Shown here: positions 1,716 to 33,105 of the stretch, piece after piece
How positions within the stretch are numbered: position 1 is the stretch's first letter
Layout: each line of letters begins with the position of its first letter
Virus record (IMG/VR): IMGVR_UViG_3300024346_000017
Span: 1-64,000 of that record
Length of the DNA: 64,000 bases
Source: a virus
Direction: 5' to 3' (one strand)
Position numbers and translations under genes: made by a program
The notes under the pieces: generated by a model
The model's input: only the letters and a program-made list of their open reading frames with translations
Database searches by the model: none
Told to the model about the DNA's origin: nothing

Positions 1716-1946
1716 TTGCTTAACTTGACAGAACTAGGAGTAGAGGTCTTTATAAAAAGATCTAATTCTAAAAATTTACAATCTTTTTGGAATAACTATT
1801 CTTTGGTAATTTGGAAAAAAAATAATTCTGGGTTCACAAATAAAAAAGGACTGTTCAAAAATGAATGGGGTATTGCAGAAGAATTTGCAATCAACGAAGA
1901 CGGACTATGGAAACTTCCATTACAATATGTCAAAAATTTTAAATAG
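1716..1946 (+). CDS. Hypothetical phage protein
   Basis: ORF with a purine-rich upstream element, in operon-like packing. Confidence 0.65.
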   Translation: MLNLTELGVEVFIKRSNSKNLQSFWNNYSLVIWKKNNSGFTNKKGLFKNEWGIAEEFAINEDGLWKLPLQYVKNFK

Positions 1947-2235
1947 TCTAGGTTTAGATAAAGATTCACTTCAATGGCAAGACTTAGCTCTTTGCCTTGG
2001 AATGGATACTAATCTGTTTTTTGATTCATATGAAGCAGATGTTAACATAGCCAAAAGCATAGATCAAGCTTGCATGTCATGTCCAGTTATAGCAATTTGT
2101 TACAAATACGGCACAGAGTCAGATAACTATGGAGTTTGGGGCGGAGTGTATTTAAGTTCTGGTACCCCAGATAAATCAAAAAATTCACACAAAACAAAAG
2201 AAACTAACAAGAAGCTAAAGGGATTACATGGCTAA
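1927..2235 (+). CDS. whiB: WhiB-family Fe-S transcription factor (ORF track 1861..2235; likely start 1927)
   Basis: WQDLALC...LFF...CMSCPVIAIC...YGVWGG: four Cys plus the GVWGG turn. Confidence 0.92.
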   Translation: MSKILNSLGLDKDSLQWQDLALCLGMDTNLFFDSYEADVNIAKSIDQACMSCPVIAICYKYGTESDNYGVWGGVYLSSGTPDKSKNSHKTKETNKKLKGLHG

Positions 2236-23462: not shown

Positions 23463-23671
23463 TCATATACCCTTTCGTTAGAGTTATTCATTATATCAGT
23501 AGCCACTGACAATAAATGTTCGGTTGCTTCAATTGCTCCTTGGAAGTAATCATCTGAAGGGTCATATTCATCATCCTTCAAAGGCTCTCCATTTTTAGTA
23601 GCCTCCCAATCTTGATTAAGACTAATTAGATGTAACTTCATATACTCTAGAAATACTGATGATTTAGTCAT
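23459..23671 (-). CDS. Hypothetical protein
   Basis: TGTCAG promoter and GGAG RBS upstream. Confidence 0.7.
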   Translation of the reverse strand: MTKSSVFLEYMKLHLISLNQDWEATKNGEPLKDDEYDPSDDYFQGAIEATEHLLSVATDIMNNSNERVYE

Positions 23672-23955
23672 AGTAATATTCTCCCGTTTCTCTATTGAAA
23701 TATCTTACCATAGAGCACTGACAAGTAAAAATTCCAGGGACATCTGAACACTCCCAGTAATGCTGACATTTAGCCCCCATCAGTCAAAATACCCTTCTGC
23801 CCATAGTCCTTGAAGAAAGTCATTTGTCTTTAACAAAGCATCAACTAAGAGGTCCTTGTCTATTTGTTCCACACCTGAATTTAAGATGTAAAACAATTTA
23901 GCATCGTGCACGGCATTAATCATTTGATCTAAATCTTCTTTAGTATAACCTAGCA

Positions 23956-24186
23956 TTATAGTTCCTCATTCCATTCTAAGTAGTATTGGTCACCTGGATT
24001 TAAATCATAGAATAGATTAAATCTACCCTTTAAATAATTACTATCTGACATTTCTGCAAATCTAAAATCTGCATATAGTTGGCCTTCATCTAAATTAGCA
24101 TTAACCCAATCTTCAACAAGCATTGCTCCTATCTCAGAATATGTCATATCAATTACCATTTCATTTTCATTCTCTAGAAAACTCAT
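23956..24186 (-). CDS. Acidic hypothetical protein
   Basis: ORF overlapping the upstream stop. Confidence 0.7.
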   Translation of the reverse strand: MSFLENENEMVIDMTYSEIGAMLVEDWVNANLDEGQLYADFRFAEMSDSNYLKGRFNLFYDLNPGDQYYLEWNEEL

Positions 24187-24923
24187 TCGGTTCCCACCTT
24201 TCTATATTCGGGTACTTTAGTTTCTAAGTATATAGCATGGGTCTGACATTTTGCTACCGCCTCTAGGTCTGCCTCTCCTAGCCAATTGCAGTTGCCACAG
24301 ATTTCACCGCATTCTTCTTCTTCACAGTATTCCATTTGGTTAATGGCATCACAATCACGACATTGATTGTCGTATTCTGATTCTGAGATAATTTCTCCAC
24401 GAAGCATCTCTAACTCCCCACCCCAGCCTGTCTCTTCCTCATATGATAAAGTAAATAGTAATGTTGGGTATTGTGCAGATAGTTTAAGTAAAGCATTTAT
24501 TGGACGAGACCAAGCAGTATTAAAGTTATAGTGGACTACATAGTTCTCGCCGTTCTCGGCTTCCTCAATAGTTGTATCAGGATATTCATTACCCTCTGCT
24601 ACAGCAACATCCCATTTAGTGCTCCACTCACGGACATTAAAGTTGTACCAGTCATTGGTTTCAAACTTCATTGCCTCAGAAAAGTCGGTGGAACGAGGAG
24701 GCTGTCCATGATAGACCTCATCAGTAATACCAGCATCTCTATAGTTATAGATATTATGAAAAGCAAAGATAGGATTAACATACTTAGTCTGCTTGACTGA
24801 ATATGCTAAATCACCTGTAGGTGTAATAGAATAAACAAATGGCTTATTCATCTGCTTGATTAGAGATTTAACTTGCTCAGGATTTCCCTCGATAGTCAAA
24901 CCATTAAATACCCAATTTGGCAT
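24183..24923 (-). CDS. DUF1281/Api92-like ferredoxin-fold protein with Cys-rich tail (start MPNW)
   Basis: MPNWVFNGLTIEG...DWYNFNVREWSTKWDV...FNTAWSRP...LSYEEE; RBS AACGAAAGG. Confidence 0.72.
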   Translation of the reverse strand: MPNWVFNGLTIEGNPEQVKSLIKQMNKPFVYSITPTGDLAYSVKQTKYVNPIFAFHNIYNYRDAGITDEVYHGQPPRSTDFSEAMKFETNDWYNFNVREWSTKWDVAVAEGNEYPDTTIEEAENGENYVVHYNFNTAWSRPINALLKLSAQYPTLLFTLSYEEETGWGGELEMLRGEIISESEYDNQCRDCDAINQMEYCEEEECGEICGNCNWLGEADLEAVAKCQTHAIYLETKVPEYRKVGTE

Positions 24924-25208
24924 TTTATATCCTTTCGTTGATATGTTCCAATTATACAATGGACCACTGACATATGGAATGGTTTATGGGTGTGTTTCAC
25001 ACCACATTTTCCAGCTATGTGGTCAAGATCACAAAATTCCAGGCGATTTGCTATTGACACCGTAAAAGAAATATATTACCCTTATTTTTTGCGGGCCAGC
25101 TGCATATTTGTCAAGTTATGAAGGCTGCTAGAGGTTCACCAACGAAAGTAAAAGAACTCTGCTTTATTTAACCCCTGGCCTGCGAAGACTGTTAGGGGCA
25201 CCCTGTGT

Positions 25209-25613
25209 TTAATCTATTAGTATTAGTTCCTGTGCATATTTTGTTACAAATGAATCAAGACTCATTACAAACAGTGGCTCATCTTGGACGCCTCGAATTT
25301 TATTCTCATCGCTAAATGTGGCCTCTTCATGAAGACTAAATTCACCTTTAGAAAAGTTAATGATAGGAATCTTGTGCTCATTATCTGAACGTTGGTTAAC
25401 TTGCATTCCCCAACCTGTTTCGCTGGTCCACTCATCTTTAATTAGATTAGAGATAGCAATCCGCGTTGCATATGATTCGTCATCCCACCTAGGACGAGCC
25501 TTGTCTACAGCACGTGCTAGCAGGTCCAGCATGCCGCCACCAGCCCAGTGTCCATATACTACAATTGTATTGCCATTAGATTGTGTAAATCCAAAGTTTG
25601 CACGGTCTCCCAT
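25209..25613 (-). CDS. Hypothetical phage protein (MGDRA...YGHW type)
   Basis: ORF. Confidence 0.75.
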   Translation of the reverse strand: MGDRANFGFTQSNGNTIVVYGHWAGGGMLDLLARAVDKARPRWDDESYATRIAISNLIKDEWTSETGWGMQVNQRSDNEHKIPIINFSKGEFSLHEEATFSDENKIRGVQDEPLFVMSLDSFVTKYAQELILID

Positions 25614-25615
25614 GT

Positions 25616-25813
25616 TTATTCCGCCATTTCTACTAGTTGAGGTGTTTCTTCCTTTTTGTTTAATTCTATCACTTCGTAAGCAATCTTGTCAAGACTAGGT
25701 TTGAACTTATTAAAGTGGTGGCCACAGAAAGCAAGCTCTCCACTAACCATCTTAACAAGATACATTGCAGGTACTACTGAATTACATTTATCGCAGCCTA
25801 TCCATTCACTCAT
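25616..25813 (-). CDS. Small Zn-binding protein
   Basis: CDKC...LAFCGHH. Confidence 0.7.
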   Translation of the reverse strand: MSEWIGCDKCNSVVPAMYLVKMVSGELAFCGHHFNKFKPSLDKIAYEVIELNKKEETPQLVEMAE

Positions 25814-25964
25814 AGCGCACCGCCTTCAATCATGTCAGATAATCGATCAAGAATCCAAGAGTCGATATCATTAATATCAATCTCTGATAACTTCTCCATT
25901 AATTCTTCACGAGCAAATTTATACCCGTCATCAAAACCATCTCTGTAATCTGACATTATATCTC

Positions 25965-26168
25965 CTAGTATCCTGTAACTTTGCTGTCGCTAACATAAGA
26001 TTCAATTAAGTTATACTTATCACGAATCCTACTTACTTTCTCAATACTACCAGTTCCAATGTTGAAAGTCAATGCAGACATTGCTTCGGGGTCTAGCCCA
26101 GTTATCTCTGCATCCCAATAGGCTCTCTCCATGGAGAGCCTATCAGGAGCGGTAAGTTCAAAGTACAT
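25965..26168 (-). CDS. Hypothetical protein
   Basis: ORF coupled to the upstream stop. Confidence 0.7.
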   Translation of the reverse strand: MYFELTAPDRLSMERAYWDAEITGLDPEAMSALTFNIGTGSIEKVSRIRDKYNLIESYVSDSKVTGY

Positions 26169-26830
26169 TAGTTCTCACGAACATTACATACTTCAGTGTC
26201 AACAATTTCAATGTTGCCATTTTGTGAATCAACATATAGGTTGTCGTAGATTTCTTGTTCTACATCTGTATCTGAATCAGCAAGTAAATCTAATTGAATA
26301 GTACCGCTAACCTCAATTGTTGCAGACCACTCAACATCTCGTGTCAAAGCAATGTCAAGCGCTTCAGCAATTGAGCGAAGAGTTTCTTGGTCATCTGAAT
26401 CGGCATATGCTTCAGTAATAATATCTCTGACTGTGTCAATTTGAGATAGCAAGGTGGTCACACGCTTTTGTGATTGGCGCCCATTGTGTAGGTCCCATTC
26501 AATACTGGTAACCTTATCAGTTGCATATTCTGCATCTGAATATCCACGAATAACTTTATATGTTACTAATAGATTAGAGTTGTATGACTCAGGGATTGGT
26601 GTTGTTGTTACTGTTGATTCTTCCATTGGTTCCTCTTTCGTTTGGGTTGAAGGTGCAATTGTAGCATGCTCCACTGACACTAATGTGGTCTTGCGTCCAC
26701 ACGGGCATGTGAGTTCTGTCACACCTGAAGGAAAACCAAATCCATCAGATGATGTTAGTTCTATTAGGCAATCGCATTCATCTGGGTCACAGACAAATGT
26801 ATATTTACTTGATACTAGTTCGTTGGTCAT
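26168..26830 (-). CDS. Hypothetical protein with N-terminal Zn-ribbon; leaderless start 26830, second in-frame start 26626
   Basis: The ORF-track extension to 26995 runs through tRNA-Asp; TACAAT lies 7 nt before ATG 26830. Confidence 0.7.
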   Translation of the reverse strand: MTNELVSSKYTFVCDPDECDCLIELTSSDGFGFPSGVTELTCPCGRKTTLVSVEHATIAPSTQTKEEPMEESTVTTTPIPESYNSNLLVTYKVIRGYSDAEYATDKVTSIEWDLHNGRQSQKRVTTLLSQIDTVRDIITEAYADSDDQETLRSIAEALDIALTRDVEWSATIEVSGTIQLDLLADSDTDVEQEIYDNLYVDSQNGNIEIVDTEVCNVREN

Positions 26831-26936
26831 AAAGAGAATTGTACCAGGTCCCACTGACAACTGTCTATAGATTTCAGGGGATTTTTTATGTGACCCGTAA
26901 CACAAGATTTGACCCCGCACCTTTGCGGGCATTTTG

Positions 26937-27010
26937 CGATCTGTAACGGACTTGAACCGTCGACCTCTACCGTGACAGGGTAGCGCTCTAACCAACTGAG
27001 CTAACAGACC
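26937..27010 (-). tRNA. tRNA-Asp(GUC)
   Basis: Minus strand GGTCTGT...CTACC-CTGTCAC-GGTAG...GGTTCAAGTCC...ACAGATC-G. Confidence 0.93.
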
Positions 27011-27021
27011 AAGAAAAAAAT

Positions 27022-27051
27022 TGTGAGCAGTTTTTATTCATGCTCAGGAAT
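27022..27051 (-). ncRNA. Putative compact H-type pseudoknot, copy 1
   Basis: AUUC-CUGAGCAU-GAAU-AAAAA-CUGCUCACA. Confidence 0.55.
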
Positions 27052-27059
27052 TTATTTAT

Positions 27060-28067
27060 TTAGAAAGCAGAAACCAATTTCTTGATTTTGTTTTTCTCAG
27101 CAGTTAGAATTGGGTCAAAGCCTGATGCACCAGCCATTAGTGTTTCAGCATTGCCACGTGATGAACGATAATAATCTAGGCGTTCAGTAAGCGCATTAAA
27201 TGCACCCCATTTTGTGCCCTTGATATTAGCATTAGTTGGTGAGTTATGATAAAGGTCATCAAGAAGAACAACCTTATTTTCCCACTTAGTAAGAGCAACC
27301 TTTGCTGCATCCTTATCTGGCTTAGGATAAATTGTCTGAATCAACTTAGAGAATTCAGCATCGGTGATTGCTTGTGAGTAAAGCGCCTTTGCTTCAACTT
27401 CGAATTCATCAAAGTATCCAAGAGCAAGACCGAGAGTCTCACGAGCAACGGCAATGCGACCTTCAACAGATTGCGTGTGACGAATCTTGAATGATTGCTT
27501 AGCATTACGCATTGCAAGATTCAAAGTGTTTTGGCATACAACACGAACAGGGGTAACGGCTGCTTGAACGGCAACTGAACCATCGTGAGATGTCCATACG
27601 ATTAAATAGAGTTTAGTTTCATCGTTGGCGCCTTGTGGGTCAAGAACCATTGTGCGAGGAATATCAACAGTACCGAATACAACTTTGCCCTTCTTAAGAG
27701 AACCAGCAGATTCCCAACGGCAATCAGCGTTTGCATCATGAATTGCATCCGCAAAAGCGAATAGTTCTTCATTCTGCACAGGCTTGTAGCGCTTACCAAC
27801 AGTGGCAAGAACATCGGTGCCCTTGTTGAATGGGTTGTCACGAATGACAAGAGATGCGGTAGATACATCATTCCAAGATTCTGGAATATGCTCAGTGATA
27901 GGAGACAAGCGAACATTCCAATTGGAAAGTTTTGCTTCGTCTAGCATCGTTTGTGTTGTGACTTCCTCATCTTGTGTAAAGATTCGGTTTGCAAGGTTGT
28001 GCCATGCAGGTGCGCCACGTAGAGCGAAAGCAACTTCGCCGTTTTCGGTTTCGAGATTATGAGCCAT
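27060..28067 (-). CDS. DUF932 (phage/plasmid TIGR03299-like) protein
   Basis: MAHNLE...PAWH...YKPVQNEELF...ESAGSL..G..VF...TSHDGS...TPVRVVCQNTL...IRHT...GTKWGAFNALTE. Confidence 0.88.
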   Translation of the reverse strand: MAHNLETENGEVAFALRGAPAWHNLANRIFTQDEEVTTQTMLDEAKLSNWNVRLSPITEHIPESWNDVSTASLVIRDNPFNKGTDVLATVGKRYKPVQNEELFAFADAIHDANADCRWESAGSLKKGKVVFGTVDIPRTMVLDPQGANDETKLYLIVWTSHDGSVAVQAAVTPVRVVCQNTLNLAMRNAKQSFKIRHTQSVEGRIAVARETLGLALGYFDEFEVEAKALYSQAITDAEFSKLIQTIYPKPDKDAAKVALTKWENKVVLLDDLYHNSPTNANIKGTKWGAFNALTERLDYYRSSRGNAETLMAGASGFDPILTAEKNKIKKLVSAF

Positions 28068-28283
28068 TATTTTTTACCTTTCGTTTGATTAGTTGTAAGT
28101 ATAACATCTGGCACTGACATTGTCTAGGATTAGATACAATATGTCCGAATTGATCCATGTGAGTAATCTCACAAAATTCCTGGCGTTTTCCACAGGCCCT
28201 CTTAAACCTGTGGATAACCCCGCACCTATGCGGGCATCTCAAATAATAAGATGGGGCGGGATCAAGATCCAGCCCCAAACCTA

Positions 28284-28517
28284 TTACTTATTTACTATTA
28301 AAGACTTTACGTAATTAACTGTCTCCATAGGAAAGAATGCTGCAGATGTTTTCTTCTTATTCTTTTGGTCATAAACAAAAGCTTTAACGTTTCCGTCAAA
28401 CTTTTTTAGATTAGAGAATACTAATTCCTTTAGGCTTTCATTATCATAGCCTTCATCTGAGTACATCGTTAAATCATTTGCTTTTACTTCATCGTACATT
28501 TCAATCTTGAAACGCAT
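28284..28517 (-). CDS. Hypothetical protein
   Basis: ORF, AAAGG RBS. Confidence 0.7.
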   Translation of the reverse strand: MRFKIEMYDEVKANDLTMYSDEGYDNESLKELVFSNLKKFDGNVKAFVYDQKNKKKTSAAFFPMETVNYVKSLIVNK

Positions 28518-28550
28518 TGTGTTGCCTTTGTTAGTAGGGACACCCGAAGG

Positions 28551-28580
28551 TGTGAGCAGTTTGGCGACTTACTCAGGTCG
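28551..28580 (-). ncRNA. Putative compact H-type pseudoknot, copy 2
   Basis: CGAC-CUGAGUAA-GUCG-CCAAA-CUGCUCACA. Confidence 0.55.
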
Positions 28581-28614
28581 TTCGCAATTTATCGTTATGC
28601 GAGAACGATTTTAT

Positions 28615-29037
28615 TTAGAGATAACGAGCAACCGCATTGTAAGTGCTTGTGCTAACTACTTCCTCATCTGTCATTTTTAGAATACGAATAGCATTAGAGA
28701 TTTCCTCTTTCTGCTCACGATAAGTATGAACATGAAGTGTCTCAAAGTCCTTCTCAGGCTCTTTAGGCAAATCCTTTTCTAATACTGTCAAGTCAAAGTC
28801 AATGTTTAGGTTGTTTGACCATGAACGATAGTTAGTACGGAAGTTTTCTGCCTTCTTGATGTTAGCAATAGCGTAGTCTTGCACTTCTTTCTGCCAAACC
28901 TTACGCAACTTTTCGTACTTTGCTTCGTTTGCTTCTTGTGAAGCGTAGTCTGACTCTAGTTTTGCTAGTGCAGTTTCTAGTGCCTTGATTACCTTTGGTG
29001 TTGCTATCTTTACTGAGATTGCTTTTTGTCGTGCCAT
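28615..29037 (-). CDS. Hypothetical phage protein
   Basis: TGTCAG-type promoter plus AACGAAAG RBS. Confidence 0.8.
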   Translation of the reverse strand: MARQKAISVKIATPKVIKALETALAKLESDYASQEANEAKYEKLRKVWQKEVQDYAIANIKKAENFRTNYRSWSNNLNIDFDLTVLEKDLPKEPEKDFETLHVHTYREQKEEISNAIRILKMTDEEVVSTSTYNAVARYL

Positions 29038-29197
29038 TTATTTTCTCTCTTTCGTTGGTTGGTTGATTAGTATAGCAGGGGGGTCTGACATTTTCCCCGA
29101 AGGGAGAGAGTTCTTACTTACGACATTGGACTAGAACACTCTCTGAAACTGTCCCTGTTTCGTGGCTTAGCACCCTGTTAAGGTGTGTGCCTCCGTC

Positions 29198-29380
29198 TTA
29201 TGCGCCTATTAGGGCTGAGTCGCTAACTGTTGTCCAACGAGTTTCCTTTGTTGGCATTTCTAGTAGCACTCGCACCGAGCCAGATGCGTTAGGAATAATC
29301 TCTTTGATTACTCCTGTCTTTTTTGACTTTAGGGTGGTGAATAAATCGCCAACCTTGTAAGTGTATCCATTTACTGTCAT
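29198..29380 (-). CDS. Small SH3/KOW-like protein
   Basis: YKVGDL...TGVIKEI...VRVLL beta pattern. Confidence 0.6.
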   Translation of the reverse strand: MTVNGYTYKVGDLFTTLKSKKTGVIKEIIPNASGSVRVLLEMPTKETRWTTVSDSALIGA

Positions 29381-29473
29381 TTTGCTTCCTTTCTGTTTAG
29401 GGTCTTATTGTAGCATTGGGGTATGACATTCGTCTAGCCCTATCTCACCATGTGAGAATGTTATTGTGTGACC

Positions 29474-29743
29474 TTAGTCACTTTCAGGTAGCCAAAACTC
29501 TAGGTGGTGTTGTTCGATAATAGCGGAGGCAGGTGCAAATTTTTCTCCACGATACGACACGCCTTCAGGCATTGCGATTAGTTTATTATAATCCTCATCA
29601 TAGTATGCATCAATAGCATCAATGCAAGGTTGTACCATAGATAGCGGAACGGGTGGATAGTGATTACCCTGTAAGTGATAGGCTAATTGTGTTTCTAAAT
29701 CTAACACGCTATCTTGAATACCTAGTGCAGTTACGCTTCCCAT
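29474..29743 (-). CDS. Hypothetical protein
   Basis: HLQGNHYPPVP...HHL. Confidence 0.75.
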   Translation of the reverse strand: MGSVTALGIQDSVLDLETQLAYHLQGNHYPPVPLSMVQPCIDAIDAYYDEDYNKLIAMPEGVSYRGEKFAPASAIIEQHHLEFWLPESD

Positions 29744-29946
29744 TAGTTAGCAACCTTTAGAATAGCGTATGAGCCATTTTTGTTAATTTCATCAAGAATT
29801 GGTTGTAAGCGAGAGCCTACCAAATCTTTTAGCATGCCTTCAAGCATTGTAATACGCATTGACTCATCAAGTGCCATTACCTGTGCAGTTATTGGGTGTC
29901 CGTCTGCAAACTCTGTTACAAACTTTAGACTATGTTCTACTATCAT
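29743..29946 (-). CDS. Hypothetical protein (likely start MIVEHS)
   Basis: AACGAAAGG RBS. Confidence 0.7.
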   Translation of the reverse strand: MIVEHSLKFVTEFADGHPITAQVMALDESMRITMLEGMLKDLVGSRLQPILDEINKNGSYAILKVAN

Positions 29947-30327
29947 TTTTTGCCTTTCGTTGGTTGGATAAGAGTATTTTAGCATACCCCACTGACATTA
30001 CCTAATCCATTCACGCATAAGTTTTGTGATAAACCTCACAAAATTCCAGGGTGATTTTGATCACACCCGTAACGACACGCCCGACCCCGCAGCTATGTGC
30101 GGGATTTTGGCAACTTGTCAAGTCGAAACGCTTTTATAAATTAGAAAAAATATAATAAACAAGAGCAAAAGGCAAGAGGGCCAATCCGATAGCAACTACT
30201 CCACCAAGTGCACCAATTAGATCATAGATCATTTTTCCCCTTGTGTTTTATTTTACGTGTGTACTTTTTTTTATTGCGAACAGGTTGCGCCGCATTGCTA
30301 CGGCGCAATTCCTGAATGCGTTTAACT

Positions 30328-30519
30328 TTATCTCGAAGAGAGGTTTGGAACATGATAACCACACGCCTCATGAAATTTATTCACGTTAAAGTTTGGATTT
30401 TCTTTTGCAAAAATTAACGCAAAATCATTAACCATTTTAGAAAAAACAGCAGGATGAGTTTTATCGCTAGCGAACTTTAGAATTTCTGCAGTTGCCTCGA
30501 AGTGCTTTCGTGTCATCAT
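30328..30519 (-). CDS. Hypothetical phage protein (MTRKHF...NPNF...KF..AC type)
   Basis: ORF. Confidence 0.7.
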   Translation of the reverse strand: MMTRKHFEATAEILKFASDKTHPAVFSKMVNDFALIFAKENPNFNVNKFHEACGYHVPNLSSR

Positions 30520-30719
30520 TTTACGGATACCATTCCTGTTCTATAAAATACCTTTGTGTACATTTTGCCAGTTGGCGTCATTATATTTACAGTTGAGAAA
30601 TCGTTAGCCATTCCCCAATCGGTGAACAAGAAAAAGTTTTCCCATGCACCAAATTCGTTTTCGTAGTCGGCAGACCAATGCGGAGCATTGCCGTCATAAG
30701 CGCAGGTTATTTTATACAT
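30516..30719 (-). CDS. Hypothetical protein
   Basis: ORF, GGAAGG RBS. Confidence 0.7.
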   Translation of the reverse strand: MYKITCAYDGNAPHWSADYENEFGAWENFFLFTDWGMANDFSTVNIMTPTGKMYTKVFYRTGMVSVK

Positions 30720-31093
30720 TATCGCCTTCCCATTCTAGCGTTACACATTCGCATTTTGTGATTTCAATTGTGTTTCCAAATTGTGAAACAGTTGCGAGAG
30801 TATCGCAATTATCACAAATGAAAACGCCTTCAAGTACATCAAATAGATTTCCCATTTACATTCCTTCTTTCGTTGTTTCGGTAATTGTAGCAGATAGCAC
30901 TGACAAGGCTTCTGCCTTGCTTGCTTGGCGTGTTGCTAATACATGCGCCTTGAATTCATCTAGGTTCATTCGAACGCTCCTTCTTCTAGTAGTCCTAATT
31001 CAATGTTGAACAATTCATCGGGTGTTGCTTCGGATAAATCTACCCAGCCAGCACCTTCGTTATCCATTCGGAAAATTTCGATGTATCCCATTA

Positions 31094-31300
31094 TTATTCA
31101 CCAACCTTTACTGCGATTGTTGCGAATTTATTTTGCAGACCGCCAGCACGAACCTCGATTAGATAGGCTTCAGTTTTTTCGCCATAGTAAATTTCTGGGC
31201 GATGTTCAGCAGAAACAATTTCGCCTGAAAAGTGGCGAGAGTTTGAGCGATAGTTTTTTCCTACAAGTAGGCTTTCGATTGTGTAGAGTTTGGTAGCCAT
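31094..31300 (-). CDS. Hypothetical protein (likely start MATKLY)
   Basis: TGTCAG promoter and AACGAAAGAAGG RBS. Confidence 0.7.
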   Translation of the reverse strand: MATKLYTIESLLVGKNYRSNSRHFSGEIVSAEHRPEIYYGEKTEAYLIEVRAGGLQNKFATIAVKVGE

Positions 31301-31589
31301 TGGCAGACCTTCTTTCGTTGTTGTTATAGTAGACATTATACACGAAAGCACTGACAAAAAATAATTACTAGCCAGTAAGTCCATGATGTGAGACGCTCAA
31401 GCCGTGTGATAGTAATCACATTTATCATGTGGACGACACGCCCGAGATCTGTGGATAACCCTGTCAAATCGACACGCCGCAAAATTCGGGGGATTTTATA
31501 ACGACTTCATAACGACACGCCCGACCCCGCACCAGTGTGGGGGTGACGCCCTGAATTGTCAAGGCGACACGCCGTTTATTTATTGTGAG

Positions 31590-31787
31590 TTACGTCTCAT
31601 CTTCTATCTCTGCTAGATAGTCCTCATGCTCTACTAGCCCAATCGCAAACGCTACGGGATCGCAACATTCTAGAATTTCGGCGGGGGTGAATGTAGAGTA
31701 GCCGATTTTTACTGTAGGATAAACATCATTAAGTAAATCTATAAAGCTTTCTTTAATTTCTAAATCTTTTTCTAATTGTGATTTCAT
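31590..31787 (-). CDS. Acidic hypothetical protein
   Basis: ORF. Confidence 0.7.
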   Translation of the reverse strand: MKSQLEKDLEIKESFIDLLNDVYPTVKIGYSTFTPAEILECCDPVAFAIGLVEHEDYLAEIEDET

Positions 31788-31893
31788 TTAGTTAATTCTC
31801 TCATTTCTTCTAGAAAGTCATGCCATACAATGCGCCCCATGTAGAGGGCGGGTACTACAAGGGCTAATTGCACTAGGGTAGTTAGTAGTCTAT

Positions 31894-32085
31894 TCATTTA
31901 GTCATCCAATCATCATCATTGTTAAAGCCGATAGGGGCTACTTGCTTATTACTCTTTATCTTATTGTATACCTTAGCACCGACAAGAATAACGGCGGTCA
32001 AGATGATAAACGCCCATGATAGGGATAGATAGATAAAGTCGCCCATGTCGAACATGAAGCCGTATTCATTTAGTTCAATAGTCAT
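31894..32085 (-). CDS. Small membrane protein
   Basis: Single TM segment, GGAG RBS. Confidence 0.65.
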   Translation of the reverse strand: MTIELNEYGFMFDMGDFIYLSLSWAFIILTAVILVGAKVYNKIKSNKQVAPIGFNNDDDWMTK

Positions 32086-32277
32086 TTACTTATCTCCGAA
32101 CATGTTAAAGACTTCGTCTAGTTGCTCATCTGTTAAGTGGTCAATCTGTATAGCCTTAGAGAAGCCTAATACATCATCTTCATCATTATCTAGTGCCTTA
32201 TTGTATTCTTCTTCTTCATCTAGGTGAATGTATGCGTCTGATACATCTGCCTGTATAGTGTCCCATTTAGTCATCAT
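32086..32277 (-). CDS. Very acidic small protein
   Basis: D/E-rich ORF. Confidence 0.65.
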   Translation of the reverse strand: MMTKWDTIQADVSDAYIHLDEEEEYNKALDNDEDDVLGFSKAIQIDHLTDEQLDEVFNMFGDK

Positions 32278-33105
32278 TAGTTCTGTTCTACCTTTCGCAT
32301 GTGTGCTACAACATTTTTAGAAACCTTTTGTAGGTCTGCTACAACCTTATTCATTTCGTCTGCGCTATTAGCGGTAAAGCCTGCGCCTAGTAGTTGAGCG
32401 CCGTCCCATAGTGAGTATGTGATTGTCATTGTCTGTTCTTCTTTCGTTAGTTGGTTATAGTTGGAATTATAGCGGATAGGTCGGACATTATCAAGACGAC
32501 ACGCCGTAGCATGTGCCCTATGCGGTGTGAGTTACCTCACACACGCACTCTATGCAATAGCAAGCCTTGCTAGAGAGTAGGTCACGCAATAGAGCCTTGC
32601 GTGTGTAGGCATTTAGTCCATAGGAGGACTTTACGCCTCCGTTATGAAACTCATGGACGATAGTGGAGTATAACTCCTCGGTTAGCATAGTCATTATTTG
32701 ACCGCCTTTCTTGAACAATTTTCTTTATGTACGAAACAAGCGTATTCGCACTCTGAGCAGATACTATCTGCAAGACGCTCACGGATTTGTGAGTAACTCT
32801 CTAGAGAGTTTCTATTTTCATGGATTGAGTTCATTTGAACTCCTTTCTTGTTAATCACCTTGATTAACTTTCTTTATACTTTAAGCATAACAGGGGGGAC
32901 TGACAAATAGAGCCATTACTGACCAGTATTAAAATAAATCTTTGTGATGCTCATCACATTCACGCTCAAGGTCATTTATCTATGTGCGGACTATGCAGAC
33001 AAAACGGACATTTCAAATACGTGTATCGTACATATTAAAAATTTATTAACATTTTATGAAATCTCAAATCGCAGTTGACTAAATTTATAATGCTATACTT
33101 TTAAC

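What the first reader, a model, noticed from the sequence alone, without database searches (positions are those of the whole stretch)
23504..32958. Minus-strand block driven by a repeated non-canonical promoter with helically phased CRP-type sites
Seen: 13 promoters share TGTCAGTG(-like)-N8-TAxxxT with invariant spacing. The conserved octamer sits at about -28 to -21 rather than at -35. Eight of them have an upstream TGTGA-N6-TCACA palindrome: perfect at 28158, 30025, 31405, 32526 and 32943, near-perfect at 25018, 26889 and 29467, with an extra one at 30050. Taking the first T of the -10 as -12, the centres fall at about -63.5, -65.5, -73.5, -74.5 (x3), -81.5 and -84.5, i.e. steps of one helical turn. 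Known: this palindrome is the CRP/GlxR consensus, and class I CRP activation uses phased positions near -61, -72 and -82. Inference: these probably early genes are gated by host cAMP-CRP plus a second factor that reads the TGTC element, tying infection to host metabolic state. No CRP gene is present in the window.
Basis: partly seen in the sequence, partly recalled or inferred. Interest (0 to 1): 0.85.

Follow-up and report, generated by a model that had tools for sequence, protein, structure and literature searches.

The report
Phage promoters copying host PafBC and CRP sites
An abundant uncultured lake phage of actinobacteria drives its block of small, probably early genes from about 14 promoters built like those switched on by the host's DNA-damage activator PafBC, and most carry a CRP-type palindrome whole helical turns upstream, so the phage probably ties these genes to host alarm and nutrient signals, but no binding has been tested.

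Summary
There are 14-15 minus-strand promoters, not 13. There is a sixth perfect palindrome at 26708. All motifs are confined to 23.5-33 kb of the 113-kb phage genome.

The "non-canonical promoter" is a known class. TGTCAG-N10-TAnnnT, with no -35, is the actinobacterial RecA-NDp / PafBC-dependent promoter (-26 element, "sigma adaptation"). The same TGTCAGTG-N8-TAnnnT sits before recA in streamlined actinobacterial genomes. Those genomes also encode PafB/PafC and a CRP whose recognition helix reads SRETVNK. The phage encodes WhiB but no CRP, WYL, sigma or integrase homologue.

Leaderless ATGs 6-7 nt after the -10 support the start sites. In about 160 related or similar IMG/VR loci the palindrome centres pile up at -54.5, -64.5, -74.5, -84.5 and -95.5, and orthologous promoters differ by 10-bp jumps. 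A minority sits at -69.5.

Best reading: host PafBC (ssDNA alarm) plus a host CRP-type regulator acting from one helix face. No binding has been tested and the host is unknown.

This scan has already reported both features on sister phage genomes. I reached the PafBC reading independently before looking those notes up.

The parts
32884..32958 (-). Promoter unit 1, first of the block: TGTCAGTC-N8-TATGCT at 32884-32905, with a perfect palindrome at 32943-32958 centred at -73.5.
32466..32541 (-). Promoter unit 2: variant TGTCCGAC-N8-TATAAT at 32466-32487. It also has a TTGATA -35-like hexamer at 17 bp. Perfect palindrome at 32526-32541 centred at -74.5.
31963..31984 (-). Weak or uncertain motif TGTCGGTG-N8-TACAAT inside an ORF. 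No palindrome.
31335..31420 (-). Promoter unit: TGTCAGTG-N8-TATAAT at 31335-31356, with a perfect palindrome at 31405-31420 centred at -84.5.
30884..30905 (-). Promoter TGTCAGTG-N8-TACAAT embedded in the end of the preceding ORF. No palindrome.
29976..30065 (-). Promoter unit: TGTCAGTG-N8-TAAAAT at 29976-29997. Perfect palindrome at 30025-30040 (-63.5) and a one-mismatch palindrome at 30050-30065 (-88.5).
29407..29482 (-). Promoter unit: variant TGTCATAC-N8-TACAAT at 29407-29428, with a one-mismatch palindrome at 29467-29482 centred at -74.5.
29069..29090 (-). Promoter TGTCAGAC-N8-TATACT. No palindrome.
28098..28173 (-). Promoter unit of the DUF932 gene: TGTCAGTG-N8-TATACT at 28098-28119, with a perfect palindrome at 28158-28173 centred at -74.5. 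Across 81 relatives, 81 keep the promoter and 78 keep the perfect palindrome, always at -74.5.
26838..26904 (-). Promoter unit: TGTCAGTG-N8-TACAAT at 26838-26859, with a one-mismatch palindrome at 26889-26904 centred at -65.5. The ATG at 26830 lies 7 nt after the -10, so the mRNA is leaderless.
26658..26723 (-). Internal promoter unit inside ORF 26168-26830: TGTCAGTG-N8-TACAAT at 26658-26679, with a perfect palindrome at 26708-26723 centred at -64.5.
24951..25033 (-). Promoter unit: TGTCAGTG-N8-TATAAT at 24951-24972, with a one-mismatch palindrome at 25018-25033 centred at -81.5. Relatives carry a further one-mismatch site at -54.5.
24227..24248 (-). Promoter TGTCAGAC-N8-TATACT inside the preceding ORF. 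No palindrome.
23702..23723 (-). Promoter TGTCAGTG-N8-TAAGAT. CCTGGAATTTTT lies directly upstream. No palindrome.
23490..23511 (-). Promoter TGTCAGTG-N8-TATAAT inside the preceding ORF. No palindrome.
27060..28067 (-). DUF932 gene. It is the marker that links this block to the terminal-repeat gene block of Streptomyces BE-type phages.
1861..2235 (+). Phage WhiB-like gene, outside the block. It marks the host as actinobacterial.

Best explanation
The 9.5-kb minus-strand block is a module of about 35 small, mostly orphan genes. By analogy it is the phage's early or host-takeover module.

Core promoters. The genes are transcribed from 14-15 hybrid promoters of the actinobacterial PafBC / RecA-NDp class. 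Each has a housekeeping sigma-A -10 (TAnnnT, mostly with TGn), no -35, and a -26 element TGTCAG at -28 to -23. In the published mechanism the PafB helix-turn-helix reads this element while PafBC sits between the DNA and sigma region 4 ("sigma adaptation"). PafBC becomes active only when its WYL domains bind single-stranded DNA.

Inference on timing. The phage encodes no such factor of its own. It therefore uses the host activator, and these genes fire when infection produces single-stranded DNA in the cell. Possible sources are the incoming DNA end, nicks, or resection.

Upstream sites. About two thirds of the promoters also carry a 16-bp TGTGA-N6-TCACA site centred at about -64.5, -74.5 or -84.5 (rarely -54.5 or -95.5), that is, on one face of the helix. 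It is most likely bound by the host CRP/GlxR-type regulator, which touches the promoter complex from upstream as in class I activation and adds a metabolic input.

Shown: sequence, spacing, confinement to the block, conservation, phasing, host-clade PafBC and CRP, and the same motif at host recA. Inferred: who binds, the sign of the effect, and early timing.
For: (1) Motif identity. The published PafBC consensus is tGTCgg(N10)tA(N3)T. PafB reads -23 to -28, there is no -35, and the -10 is the SigA type (PMC8635444). The phage sites are TGTCAG(N10)TA(N3)T with the same geometry, and positions -38 to -30 carry no information.

(2) Same motif in cellular genomes. A pattern search of five streamlined actinobacterial genomes (1.3-1.5 Mb) hit orthologous sites directly upstream of recA: TGTCAGTGGC(A/G)CCTG(C/A)TACCTT, followed by a GAAC-N4-GTTC SOS box. 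recA is the archetypal RecA-NDp gene (PMC8223512).

(3) Host factors exist. Those genomes encode tandem PafB-like (WYL+WCX) and PafC (HTH_PafC+WYL) proteins. The PafB-like protein aligns end to end with M. smegmatis PafB (PDB 7P5X/9FND, E 2e-41) and keeps both GTC-reading arginines, SRMFERDK against DRMFERDK.

(4) No phage-coded substitute was found. Whole-genome searches gave no WYL, CRP HTH, cNMP-binding or sigma region 2 match. Pfam found no HTH among 29 proteins of the block and the genes next to it.

(5) The promoters look functional. Across 1039 unique promoter contexts, ATGs that open ORFs of at least 40 codons cluster at 6-7 nt after the -10 (80 cases; almost none at 3-5 or 8-11 nt) and at 24-36 nt behind a GAAAGG Shine-Dalgarno. 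Canonical -35/-10 promoters are not enriched in the block: 35 found against 31.6 expected.

(6) Conservation without circularity. In the 200 nt upstream of the DUF932 gene in 81 phages (56 distinct sequences), 81 keep the promoter and 78 keep a perfect palindrome, always at -74.5, while flanks vary.

(7) Phasing. There are 419 perfect-palindrome sites in 1133 distinct promoter contexts. By centre they count 73 at -64.5, 107 at -74.5, 54 at -84.5, 7 at -54.5 and 7 at -95.5. Orthologous promoters differ by 10-bp jumps, for example -74.5, -84.5 and -95.5 in one cluster. The Rayleigh R is 0.62-0.70 for periods of 10-10.5 bp.

(8) CRP is available. The CRP-family HTH scores above cut-off in 198 of 201 genomes of the class. 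That tally includes six unpublished genomes (G007, G022, G027, G030, G035, G190). The streamlined genomes have 230-aa orthologues with the helix GASRETVNKALADF. Arg and Glu of the RE motif read TGTGA in CAP (PMC10187061).

(9) Actinobacterial host. The phage encodes WhiB. Its portal is 57% identical and its DUF932 protein 51% identical to those of Streptomyces BE/BK phages.
Against: - No binding, TSS or expression-timing data exist. RNA-library contigs from four lake studies cover parts of the block but cannot show starts or exclude DNA carry-over.
- The host is unidentified. The genomes I used for PafBC, CRP and recA are only candidates from the same class.
- PafBC needs single-stranded DNA to act, which is an odd requirement for the very first genes of an infection. 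The strong extended -10 could allow PafBC-independent firing.
- The palindrome centres lie about 3 bp upstream of the E. coli class I positions. This is roughly a quarter to a third of a turn.
- Five or six promoters have no palindrome, and 46 of 419 sites sit off phase at -69.5 or -70.5.
- A combined palindrome plus PafBC-type promoter is rare in cellular genomes: 6 single hits in 301 genomes. The pairing therefore has no known host precedent.
- Cultured relatives use ordinary TTGTAT-N17-TAGACT promoters in the homologous block.
- Most phage proteins have no family assignment, so a phage-coded binder cannot be excluded.
Confidence: 0.6

Rival explanations
1. The core promoters are of PafBC type, but the palindrome is read by a phage-encoded dimeric DNA-binding protein of unknown family, such as an early-gene feedback regulator, and not by host CRP.
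For: Most phage proteins are orphans: Pfam matched 2 of the 29 proteins scanned in and next to the block at its cut-off (DUF7455 here; DUF932 and DUF1281_C were found). Perfect palindromes are far denser in the phage (6 in 6 kb) than in candidate host genomes (0-1 per 1.4 Mb). This fits a dedicated phage factor with a tight consensus. The combined architecture is almost absent from 301 cellular genomes.
Against: - The site is letter for letter the CRP/GlxR consensus, including T/G at position 6 and A/C at position 11.
- No CRP-like or other HTH protein was detected in the block, and no CRP-like protein anywhere in the phage.
- The palindrome also occurs in promoter arrays of phages that share almost no nucleotide similarity with this one (L150, L152).
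- Other upstream elements in these arrays also resemble host sites, such as DnaA-box-like TTATCCACA.
Confidence: 0.2
2. A phage-encoded protein reads the TGTCAG element in place of host PafBC. It would be a PafB-like HTH without a WYL sensor, or a WhiB-based adaptor on sigma region 4. The genes would then be middle genes, independent of the host ssDNA alarm, as in T4 MotA/AsiA sigma appropriation.
For: The phage encodes a WhiB-like protein with a basic tail. WhiB-family proteins bind sigma-A region 4 (my own knowledge). T4 sets a precedent for phage-coded factors that replace -35 recognition (cited in PMC8635444). A need for ssDNA is awkward for the first genes of an infection.
Against: - The element and its spacing are identical to the host recA promoter of the candidate host clade and to the PafBC consensus.
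- The genome has no WYL, HTH_PafC-like or sigma homologue.
- Nothing else in the genome looks like an earlier promoter class for this block.
Confidence: 0.12
3. The sites work mainly as a sink. Many high-affinity PafBC and CRP sites on a replicating genome would titrate these regulators away from the host DNA-damage and defence regulon. Alternatively the palindromes repress or block read-through rather than activate.
For: Fourteen PafBC-type sites and ten CRP-type sites are packed into 9.5 kb, far denser than in host genomes. PafBC has been linked to mycobacteriophage resistance; I saw this only as a citation in PMC12848934. GlxR acts both as activator and as repressor (PMC10187061).
Against: - Every -26/-10 pair sits at a fixed distance before a Shine-Dalgarno plus ATG, or before a leaderless ATG. 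They are therefore working promoters and not free-standing decoys.
- Strict helical phasing relative to the promoter is expected for face-specific contact. Titration or roadblocks would not require it.
Confidence: 0.08

Closest known systems
PafBC-dependent (RecA-NDp) promoters of Actinobacteria, such as recA P1 of Mycobacterium and Streptomyces; "sigma adaptation" (Mueller et al. 2021, PMC8635444; Schilling et al. 2025, PMC11804915)
   Same: The 22-nt bipartite motif (t)GTC(A/G)G-N10-TAnnnT. The element lies at -28 to -23. There is no -35. The -10 is the housekeeping sigma-A type. The identical octamer stands before recA in candidate host genomes.
   Different: - Located in a phage, with 14-15 copies in 9.5 kb.
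- Drives small orphan genes, not repair genes.
- Has A rather than G at -24, and a strong extended -10 TGn.
- Most copies carry an upstream CRP-type palindrome.
- I found no published report of phage promoters of this class in the held library.
Class I CRP (CAP)-dependent promoters of E. coli (lac P1 type; sites at -61.5, -71.5/-72.5, -82.5, -92.5)
   Same: The same 16-bp consensus TGTGA-N6-TCACA. The site lies upstream of the core promoter. Allowed positions are separated by whole helical turns.
   Different: - Centres are at -64.5, -74.5, -84.5 (and -54.5, -95.5), about 3 bp further upstream.
- The core promoter has no -35 and presumably carries PafBC under sigma region 4.
- The regulator would be an actinobacterial CRP/GlxR (helix RETVNK, not RETVGR).
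- An activating role has not been shown.
Phage T4 middle promoters (MotA box at -30 plus AsiA; sigma appropriation)
   Same: Phage genes are expressed from hybrid promoters that keep the host -10 and replace the -35 with an activator box at fixed spacing.
   Different: T4 makes its own two proteins. Here no phage homologue was found and the box is the host's own PafBC box, centred about 5 bp closer to the -10.
Host-takeover / pre-early modules in terminal repeats of large virulent phages (SPO1 terminal redundancy, T5 first-step-transfer DNA; from my own knowledge)
   Same: A dense run of small orphan genes on one strand. Nearly every gene or gene pair has its own promoter, with hairpins between them. 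The homologous DUF932 gene lies in the roughly 11-kb terminal repeat of Streptomyces BE phages, with two copies per record.
   Different: SPO1 and T5 (my own knowledge) and the Streptomyces relative Jay2Jay use canonical strong -35/-10 promoters. A terminal repeat has not been shown for this assembly.

Membership tests
PafBC-dependent (RecA-NDp) promoter | Bipartite 22-nt motif (t)GTC(g/a)g-N10-tA-N3-T | tested here: met
   There are 14 sites matching TGTC(A/C)(G/T)-N10-TA-N3-T, 12 of them TGTCAG; the variants are TGTCCG at 32487 and TGTCAT at 29428. The consensus comes from PMC8635444.
PafBC-dependent (RecA-NDp) promoter | The element lies at -28 to -23 with invariant spacing to a sigma-A-type -10, and there is no -35 consensus | tested here: met
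   The spacing is invariant in all copies. Information content at -38 to -30 is about 0 bits across 52 promoter clusters. A canonical promoter scan shows no enrichment.
PafBC-dependent (RecA-NDp) promoter | Transcription starts 6-8 nt downstream of the TAnnnT hexamer | tested here: inconclusive
   Indirect support only: 80 leaderless ATGs opening long ORFs lie exactly 6-7 nt after the -10. No 5'-end data exist, and RNA contigs cannot show starts.
PafBC-dependent (RecA-NDp) promoter | The same motif controls DNA-damage genes (recA) in the host lineage | tested here: inconclusive
   Met for three of five streamlined actinobacterial genomes, where recA is preceded by TGTCAGTG-N8-TACCTT plus an SOS box. 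The phage's actual host is unknown.
PafBC-dependent (RecA-NDp) promoter | PafB/PafC is present, with the GTC-reading arginines (R46, R50 of M. smegmatis PafB) | tested here: met
   Tested in candidate host genomes only. Tandem WYL proteins occur in 5 of 5. Domains are HTH_PafC+WYL and WYL+WCX. The PafB-like protein aligns to PDB 7P5X/9FND PafB with both arginines kept. The phage itself has none.
PafBC-dependent (RecA-NDp) promoter | Transcription depends on PafBC and single-stranded DNA | not testable with these tools
   This needs in vitro transcription or a pafBC deletion host.
CRP/GlxR-dependent class I-type promoter | 16-bp site TGTGA-N6-TCACA | tested here: met
   Six perfect sites (0.05 expected) and four sites with one mismatch, found only in this block of the genome. 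The logo across 372 distinct sites shows conserved arms and a variable centre.
CRP/GlxR-dependent class I-type promoter | The site lies upstream of the core promoter on one face of the helix, at positions one turn apart | tested here: met
   Peaks at -54.5, -64.5, -74.5, -84.5 and -95.5. A minority lies at -69.5. The peaks are offset about 3 bp from the E. coli positions.
CRP/GlxR-dependent class I-type promoter | A CRP-family protein with the TGTGA-reading helix is available in the cell | tested here: inconclusive
   Present in 198 of 201 genomes of the class. The helix reads SRETVNK in the streamlined genomes. The host itself is not identified, and the phage has none.
CRP/GlxR-dependent class I-type promoter | CRP binding (cAMP-dependent or not) and activation through RNA polymerase contact | not testable with these tools
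   This needs EMSA or footprinting and reporter assays.
T4-type sigma appropriation (phage-coded MotA/AsiA-like pair) | The phage encodes the activator that reads the box replacing the -35 | tested here: not met
   No WYL, sigma or CRP homologue was found in the genome, and no HTH in the block. Orphan proteins remain untested, so this lowers the claim but does not exclude it.

The most novel reading that the evidence does not exclude
A whole, very abundant group of lake actinophages starts its programme with a two-input gate made only of borrowed host parts. One input is the PafBC single-stranded-DNA alarm. Its local trigger could be the free end of the injected genome, if the block lies in a terminal repeat. 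The other input is a swappable upstream module for a host nutrient regulator: CRP sites in this lineage, and GTTAY-N6-GTTAT direct repeats in others. The host's own damage and defence alarm would thus be turned into the phage's ignition switch.
Probability: 0.3. Interest if true: 0.85.

Novelty: new variant of a known kind. Interest (0 to 1): 0.7.

Why it matters
PafBC is the master activator of the LexA-independent DNA-damage response in Actinobacteria. It uses an unusual mechanism, sigma adaptation, which has been described only for cellular genes.

If a phage drives its first genes from PafBC promoters, three things follow:
- Phages would be shown to exploit a single-stranded-DNA alarm that cells also use for repair and defence.
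- A natural set of more than 1000 promoter variants would exist for dissecting the -26 element.
- An activator at -26 would be shown to combine with a class I-type upstream regulator. No one has examined that geometry.

The carriers are among the most frequently assembled phages of lake actinobacteria: 281 related IMG/VR contigs were confirmed, and four lake metatranscriptome studies hold sequences from the block. The wiring could link phage lysis in lakes to UV or DNA damage and to the carbon status of streamlined hosts.

Tried and rejected
Searches that found nothing useful:
- Megablast of the block, and tblastn of a tail-region protein, against cultured phages gave no match.
- Rfam on the block found only tRNA-Asp.

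Readings considered and rejected:
- (A/T)TGTCA as a -35 hexamer. The spacer would be 11 bp, too short for sigma regions 2 and 4 to bind together. No -10 follows at 17 bp.
- CCTGGAAT as a sigma-54 or ECF (GGAAT-N18-GTT) promoter. The spacings do not fit (sequence).
- The palindromes as terminators. They have 5-bp arms and no T tract, and real GC-rich hairpins lie further upstream.

Host identification:
- The only hit to the phage WhiB was a 40% GC phage-like contig binned into a 54% GC Aquiluna MAG, so it says nothing about the host. That MAG has only a sub-threshold CRP-HTH match.

RNA evidence:
- Contigs of four lake metatranscriptomes cover parts of the block. They are assemblies of many strains and show neither starts, strand nor level.
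- Adapter-tagged ends near 29061-29069 came from diverged relatives and were not used.

Looking for a cultured model:
- Regions around DUF932 homologues in the cultured phages KayaCho, Fresco, Shade, Gilson and Jay2Jay hold no PafBC-type array, with 0-1 hits each.
- Jay2Jay uses TTGTAT-N17-TAGACT with an upstream CCCGGACA motif instead.

Other:
- Perfect palindromes are not a feature of the candidate host genomes (0-1 each).

Full report
**What the window is.** The window is the first 64 kb of a 113,108-bp IMG/VR virus record of 37.8% GC.
- The portal protein is 57% identical to that of Streptomyces phages of the BE/BK type (Stanwilliamsviridae).
- The DUF932 gene at 27060-28067 is about 51% identical to a gene in those phages' roughly 11-kb terminal repeat, present twice per record.
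- The phage encodes a WhiB-like protein at 1861-2235. This family is typical of Actinobacteria and their phages.
- It has no tyrosine or large serine recombinase, so it is probably virulent.
- Of 296 IMG/VR stretches that matched a peptide pattern, 281 encode a confirmed relative of the DUF932 protein. Their IMG/VR names alone do not give a habitat. The habitat evidence comes from freshwater and lake metatranscriptome runs of four studies that hold sequences from the block.

- TGTC-N12-TA-N3-T is 2.5-fold over chance in the window, and 16 of the 29 matches lie on the minus strand between 23490 and 32905.
- The exact octamer form occurs 10 times in the whole genome, 9 of them here on the minus strand. 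The reversed control gives none.
- TGTGA-N6-TCACA, CCTGGAATTT (three of its four copies), GGCGTGTCG, TTATCCACA and the leader motif AACGAAAG are likewise confined to this block.
- I count 14 solid promoters and one doubtful one.
One perfect copy (26708-26723) was overlooked.
- Taking the first T of the -10 as -12, the centres are -63.5, -64.5, -65.5, -73.5, -74.5 (three times), -81.5, -84.5 and -88.5.

**Anatomy of a unit.** In the intergenic units (for example 28098-28280 and 29976-30140) the order is:
1. a GC-rich hairpin;
2. upstream boxes (TTATCCACA, GGCGTGTCG);
3. a T-rich flank and the palindrome;
4. an A/T-rich stretch of about 30-50 bp;
5. TGTCAG at -28 to -23;
6. an 8-nt spacer that usually ends in TGn;
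7. the TAnAAT hexamer;
8. either a leader of about 30 nt with CAACnAACGAAAGG and ATG, or an ATG 7 nt after the -10.

Positions -38 to -30 carry no information in 52 promoter clusters. A standard -35/-10 scan finds no more sites than in shuffled sequence, 35 against 31.6. The genes are small and almost all without family.

**What the core promoter is.** I searched TGTCAG-N7-TGN-TANNNT in five streamlined actinobacterial genomes of 1.3-1.5 Mb. I reached them through the class of a genome that carries a hit to the phage's WhiB. The pattern found few sites, but three were orthologous and lie directly before recA. They read TGTCAGTGGC(A/G)CCTG(C/A)TACCTT, followed by the SOS box TCGAACagatGTTCG.

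This is the RecA-NDp promoter, the LexA-independent DNA-damage promoter of Actinobacteria (PMC8223512). Its activator is PafBC.
- The ChIP-derived consensus is tGTCgg(N10)tA(N3)T.
- In the cryo-EM structure the PafB HTH reads -23 to -28 (the "-26 element"), while PafBC sits between the DNA and sigma-A region 4. There is no -35 (PMC8635444).
- PafBC is activated when its WYL domains bind single-stranded DNA (PMC11804915).

The phage promoters match this definition feature by feature. The candidate host genomes encode tandem PafB-like (WYL+WCX) and PafC (HTH_PafC+WYL) proteins. The PafB-like protein aligns over its whole length with M. smegmatis PafB of PDB 7P5X/9FND and keeps both arginines that read GTC. 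The phage has no WYL protein and no sigma factor.

**Are they working promoters?** No 5' ends are available, but the sequence offers an internal test. Across 1039 distinct promoter contexts from this phage and similar arrays, ATGs that open ORFs of at least 40 codons lie either 24-36 nt after the -10, behind a GAAAGG Shine-Dalgarno, or exactly 6-7 nt after it (80 cases). Almost none lie at 3-5 or 8-11 nt. Leaderless mRNAs that begin at the A of the start codon are common in Actinobacteria (my own knowledge). This pattern is what one expects if transcription starts 7-8 nt after the hexamer. In this window, promoter 26838-26859 has its ATG at 26830.

**The palindromes.** The logo from 372 distinct sites has invariant arms, T/G at position 6, A/C at position 11, a free centre and A/T-rich flanks. 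That is the CAP/GlxR consensus (PMC10187061).

To avoid circularity I took the 200 nt upstream of the DUF932 gene in 81 phages, whatever they contained. There are 56 distinct sequences. All 81 keep the PafBC-type promoter and 78 keep a perfect palindrome, always centred at -74.5, while neighbouring bases vary.

Over all arrays, 419 perfect sites fall mainly as follows:

| Centre | Sites |
|---|---|
| -54.5 | 7 |
| -64.5 | 73 |
| -74.5 | 107 |
| -84.5 | 54 |
| -95.5 | 7 |

- Within single clusters of orthologous promoters the position jumps by 10 bp. Examples are -74.5, -84.5 and -95.5, or -54.5, -64.5 and -74.5.
- This is hard to explain by shared ancestry alone. It points to a protein that must sit on one face of the helix relative to the promoter complex.
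- An off-phase class at -69.5/-70.5 (46 sites) remains unexplained. It often has ATGTCCGA next to the palindrome.
- The preferred centres lie about 3 bp upstream of the E. coli class I positions.

**Who binds the palindrome?** The phage has no CRP-family gene. CRP-family HTH domains score above cut-off in 198 of 201 genomes of the class. That tally includes the unpublished genomes G007, G022, G027, G030, G035 and G190, from which nothing else is used. The streamlined genomes have a 230-aa orthologue with the helix GASRETVNKALADF. A host CRP/GlxR-type protein is therefore the simplest candidate. A phage protein of unknown family is not excluded. Combined palindrome plus PafBC-type promoters are almost absent from 301 cellular genomes, with 6 single hits. 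The pairing therefore looks like a phage invention and not a copied host promoter.

**How widespread it is.** A scan of IMG/VR with TTGTCGGTG-N5-TGN-TANNNT returned 80 loci.
- They hold 459 matches to the relaxed motif against 5 for the reversed control.
- About 45 of the loci carry same-strand arrays of 3-17 promoters. All of these are 34-45% GC.
- Several share no detectable nucleotide similarity with this genome (L173, L174) or about 1% of their length (L158, L177).
- In L173, L174 and L177 the upstream element is a direct repeat GTTAY-N6-GTTAT rather than the CRP palindrome. The DnaA-box-like and GGCGTGTCG motifs recur.
- Five cultured actinophages that carry DUF932 homologues have no such arrays.
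- I found no paper describing phage promoters of the PafBC type.

**Earlier notes of this scan.** After reaching this reading I looked up the scan's earlier notes. The same two features have already been reported on several sister phage genomes. They agree with what I found here.

**Verdict.** The promoter is a member of a known class, PafBC/RecA-NDp, used in a new setting: a phage, in arrays, and combined with phased CRP-type sites. Binding, the sign of regulation, timing and host all remain to be shown.

Noticed in passing
window 28190-28235 and about 31450-31460; also upstream of promoters in L173, L174, L177: TTATCCACA (the DnaA-box consensus, from my own knowledge) recurs upstream of the palindromes. 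Before the DUF932 promoter it forms an inverted pair, TTATCCACAGG...CCTGTGGATAA, that is conserved in 81 relatives. This could be two converging DnaA boxes or a hairpin.
   Followed up: partly
window 29555-32505 (GGCGTGTCG at 29563, 30081, 31442, 31478, 31521, 31573, 32505, minus strand): Seven copies of GGCGTGTCG (GACAC core on the other strand) occur only in this block. The same box recurs in unrelated promoter arrays (L174, L177; reversed in L146, L165). A similar GCGACACAC lies just upstream of the -26 element of host recA (L100-L102). It may be a further host-factor site.
   Followed up: partly
L173, L174, L177 (IMG/VR loci): Other low-GC phage groups with PafBC-type promoter arrays carry a direct repeat GTTAY-N6-GTTAT at about -60 to -40 in place of the CRP palindrome. 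The layout resembles sites of OmpR-family regulators such as GlnR (from memory, untested).
   Followed up: no
window 26168-26830, minus strand: One 220-codon ORF starts leaderless at promoter 26859. It contains a complete internal unit (palindrome 26708, promoter 26679, Shine-Dalgarno, ATG at 26626) in the same frame. It could therefore yield a long form with a Cys-rich N-terminus and a short form.
   Followed up: partly
window 29100-29200, minus strand: This is an untranslated stretch between gene 29198-29380 and promoter 29090. The bin containing it has the highest summed contig depth in three of the four lake RNA libraries. It may be a small structured RNA. Rfam finds nothing.
   Followed up: partly
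loci with sites at -69.5/-70.5, e.g. L119, L121, L128; window about 33010: The motif ATGTCCGA(T/A)TT often follows the palindrome directly in the off-phase class. TGTCCG also replaces TGTCAG in promoter 32466-32487.
   Followed up: no
window 26936-27010, minus strand: A tRNA-Asp(GTC) gene sits inside the small-gene block, between the DUF932 gene and promoter unit 26838-26904.
   Followed up: no
G125:C1:447002 and 467122; G143:C1:481917 (L103-L105): Further TGTCAGTG-N8-TAnnnT promoters in the streamlined genomes precede genes of unknown function and a vWA-domain-like protein. Two of them are leaderless or nearly so. They are possible members of a small PafBC regulon in these organisms.
   Followed up: no
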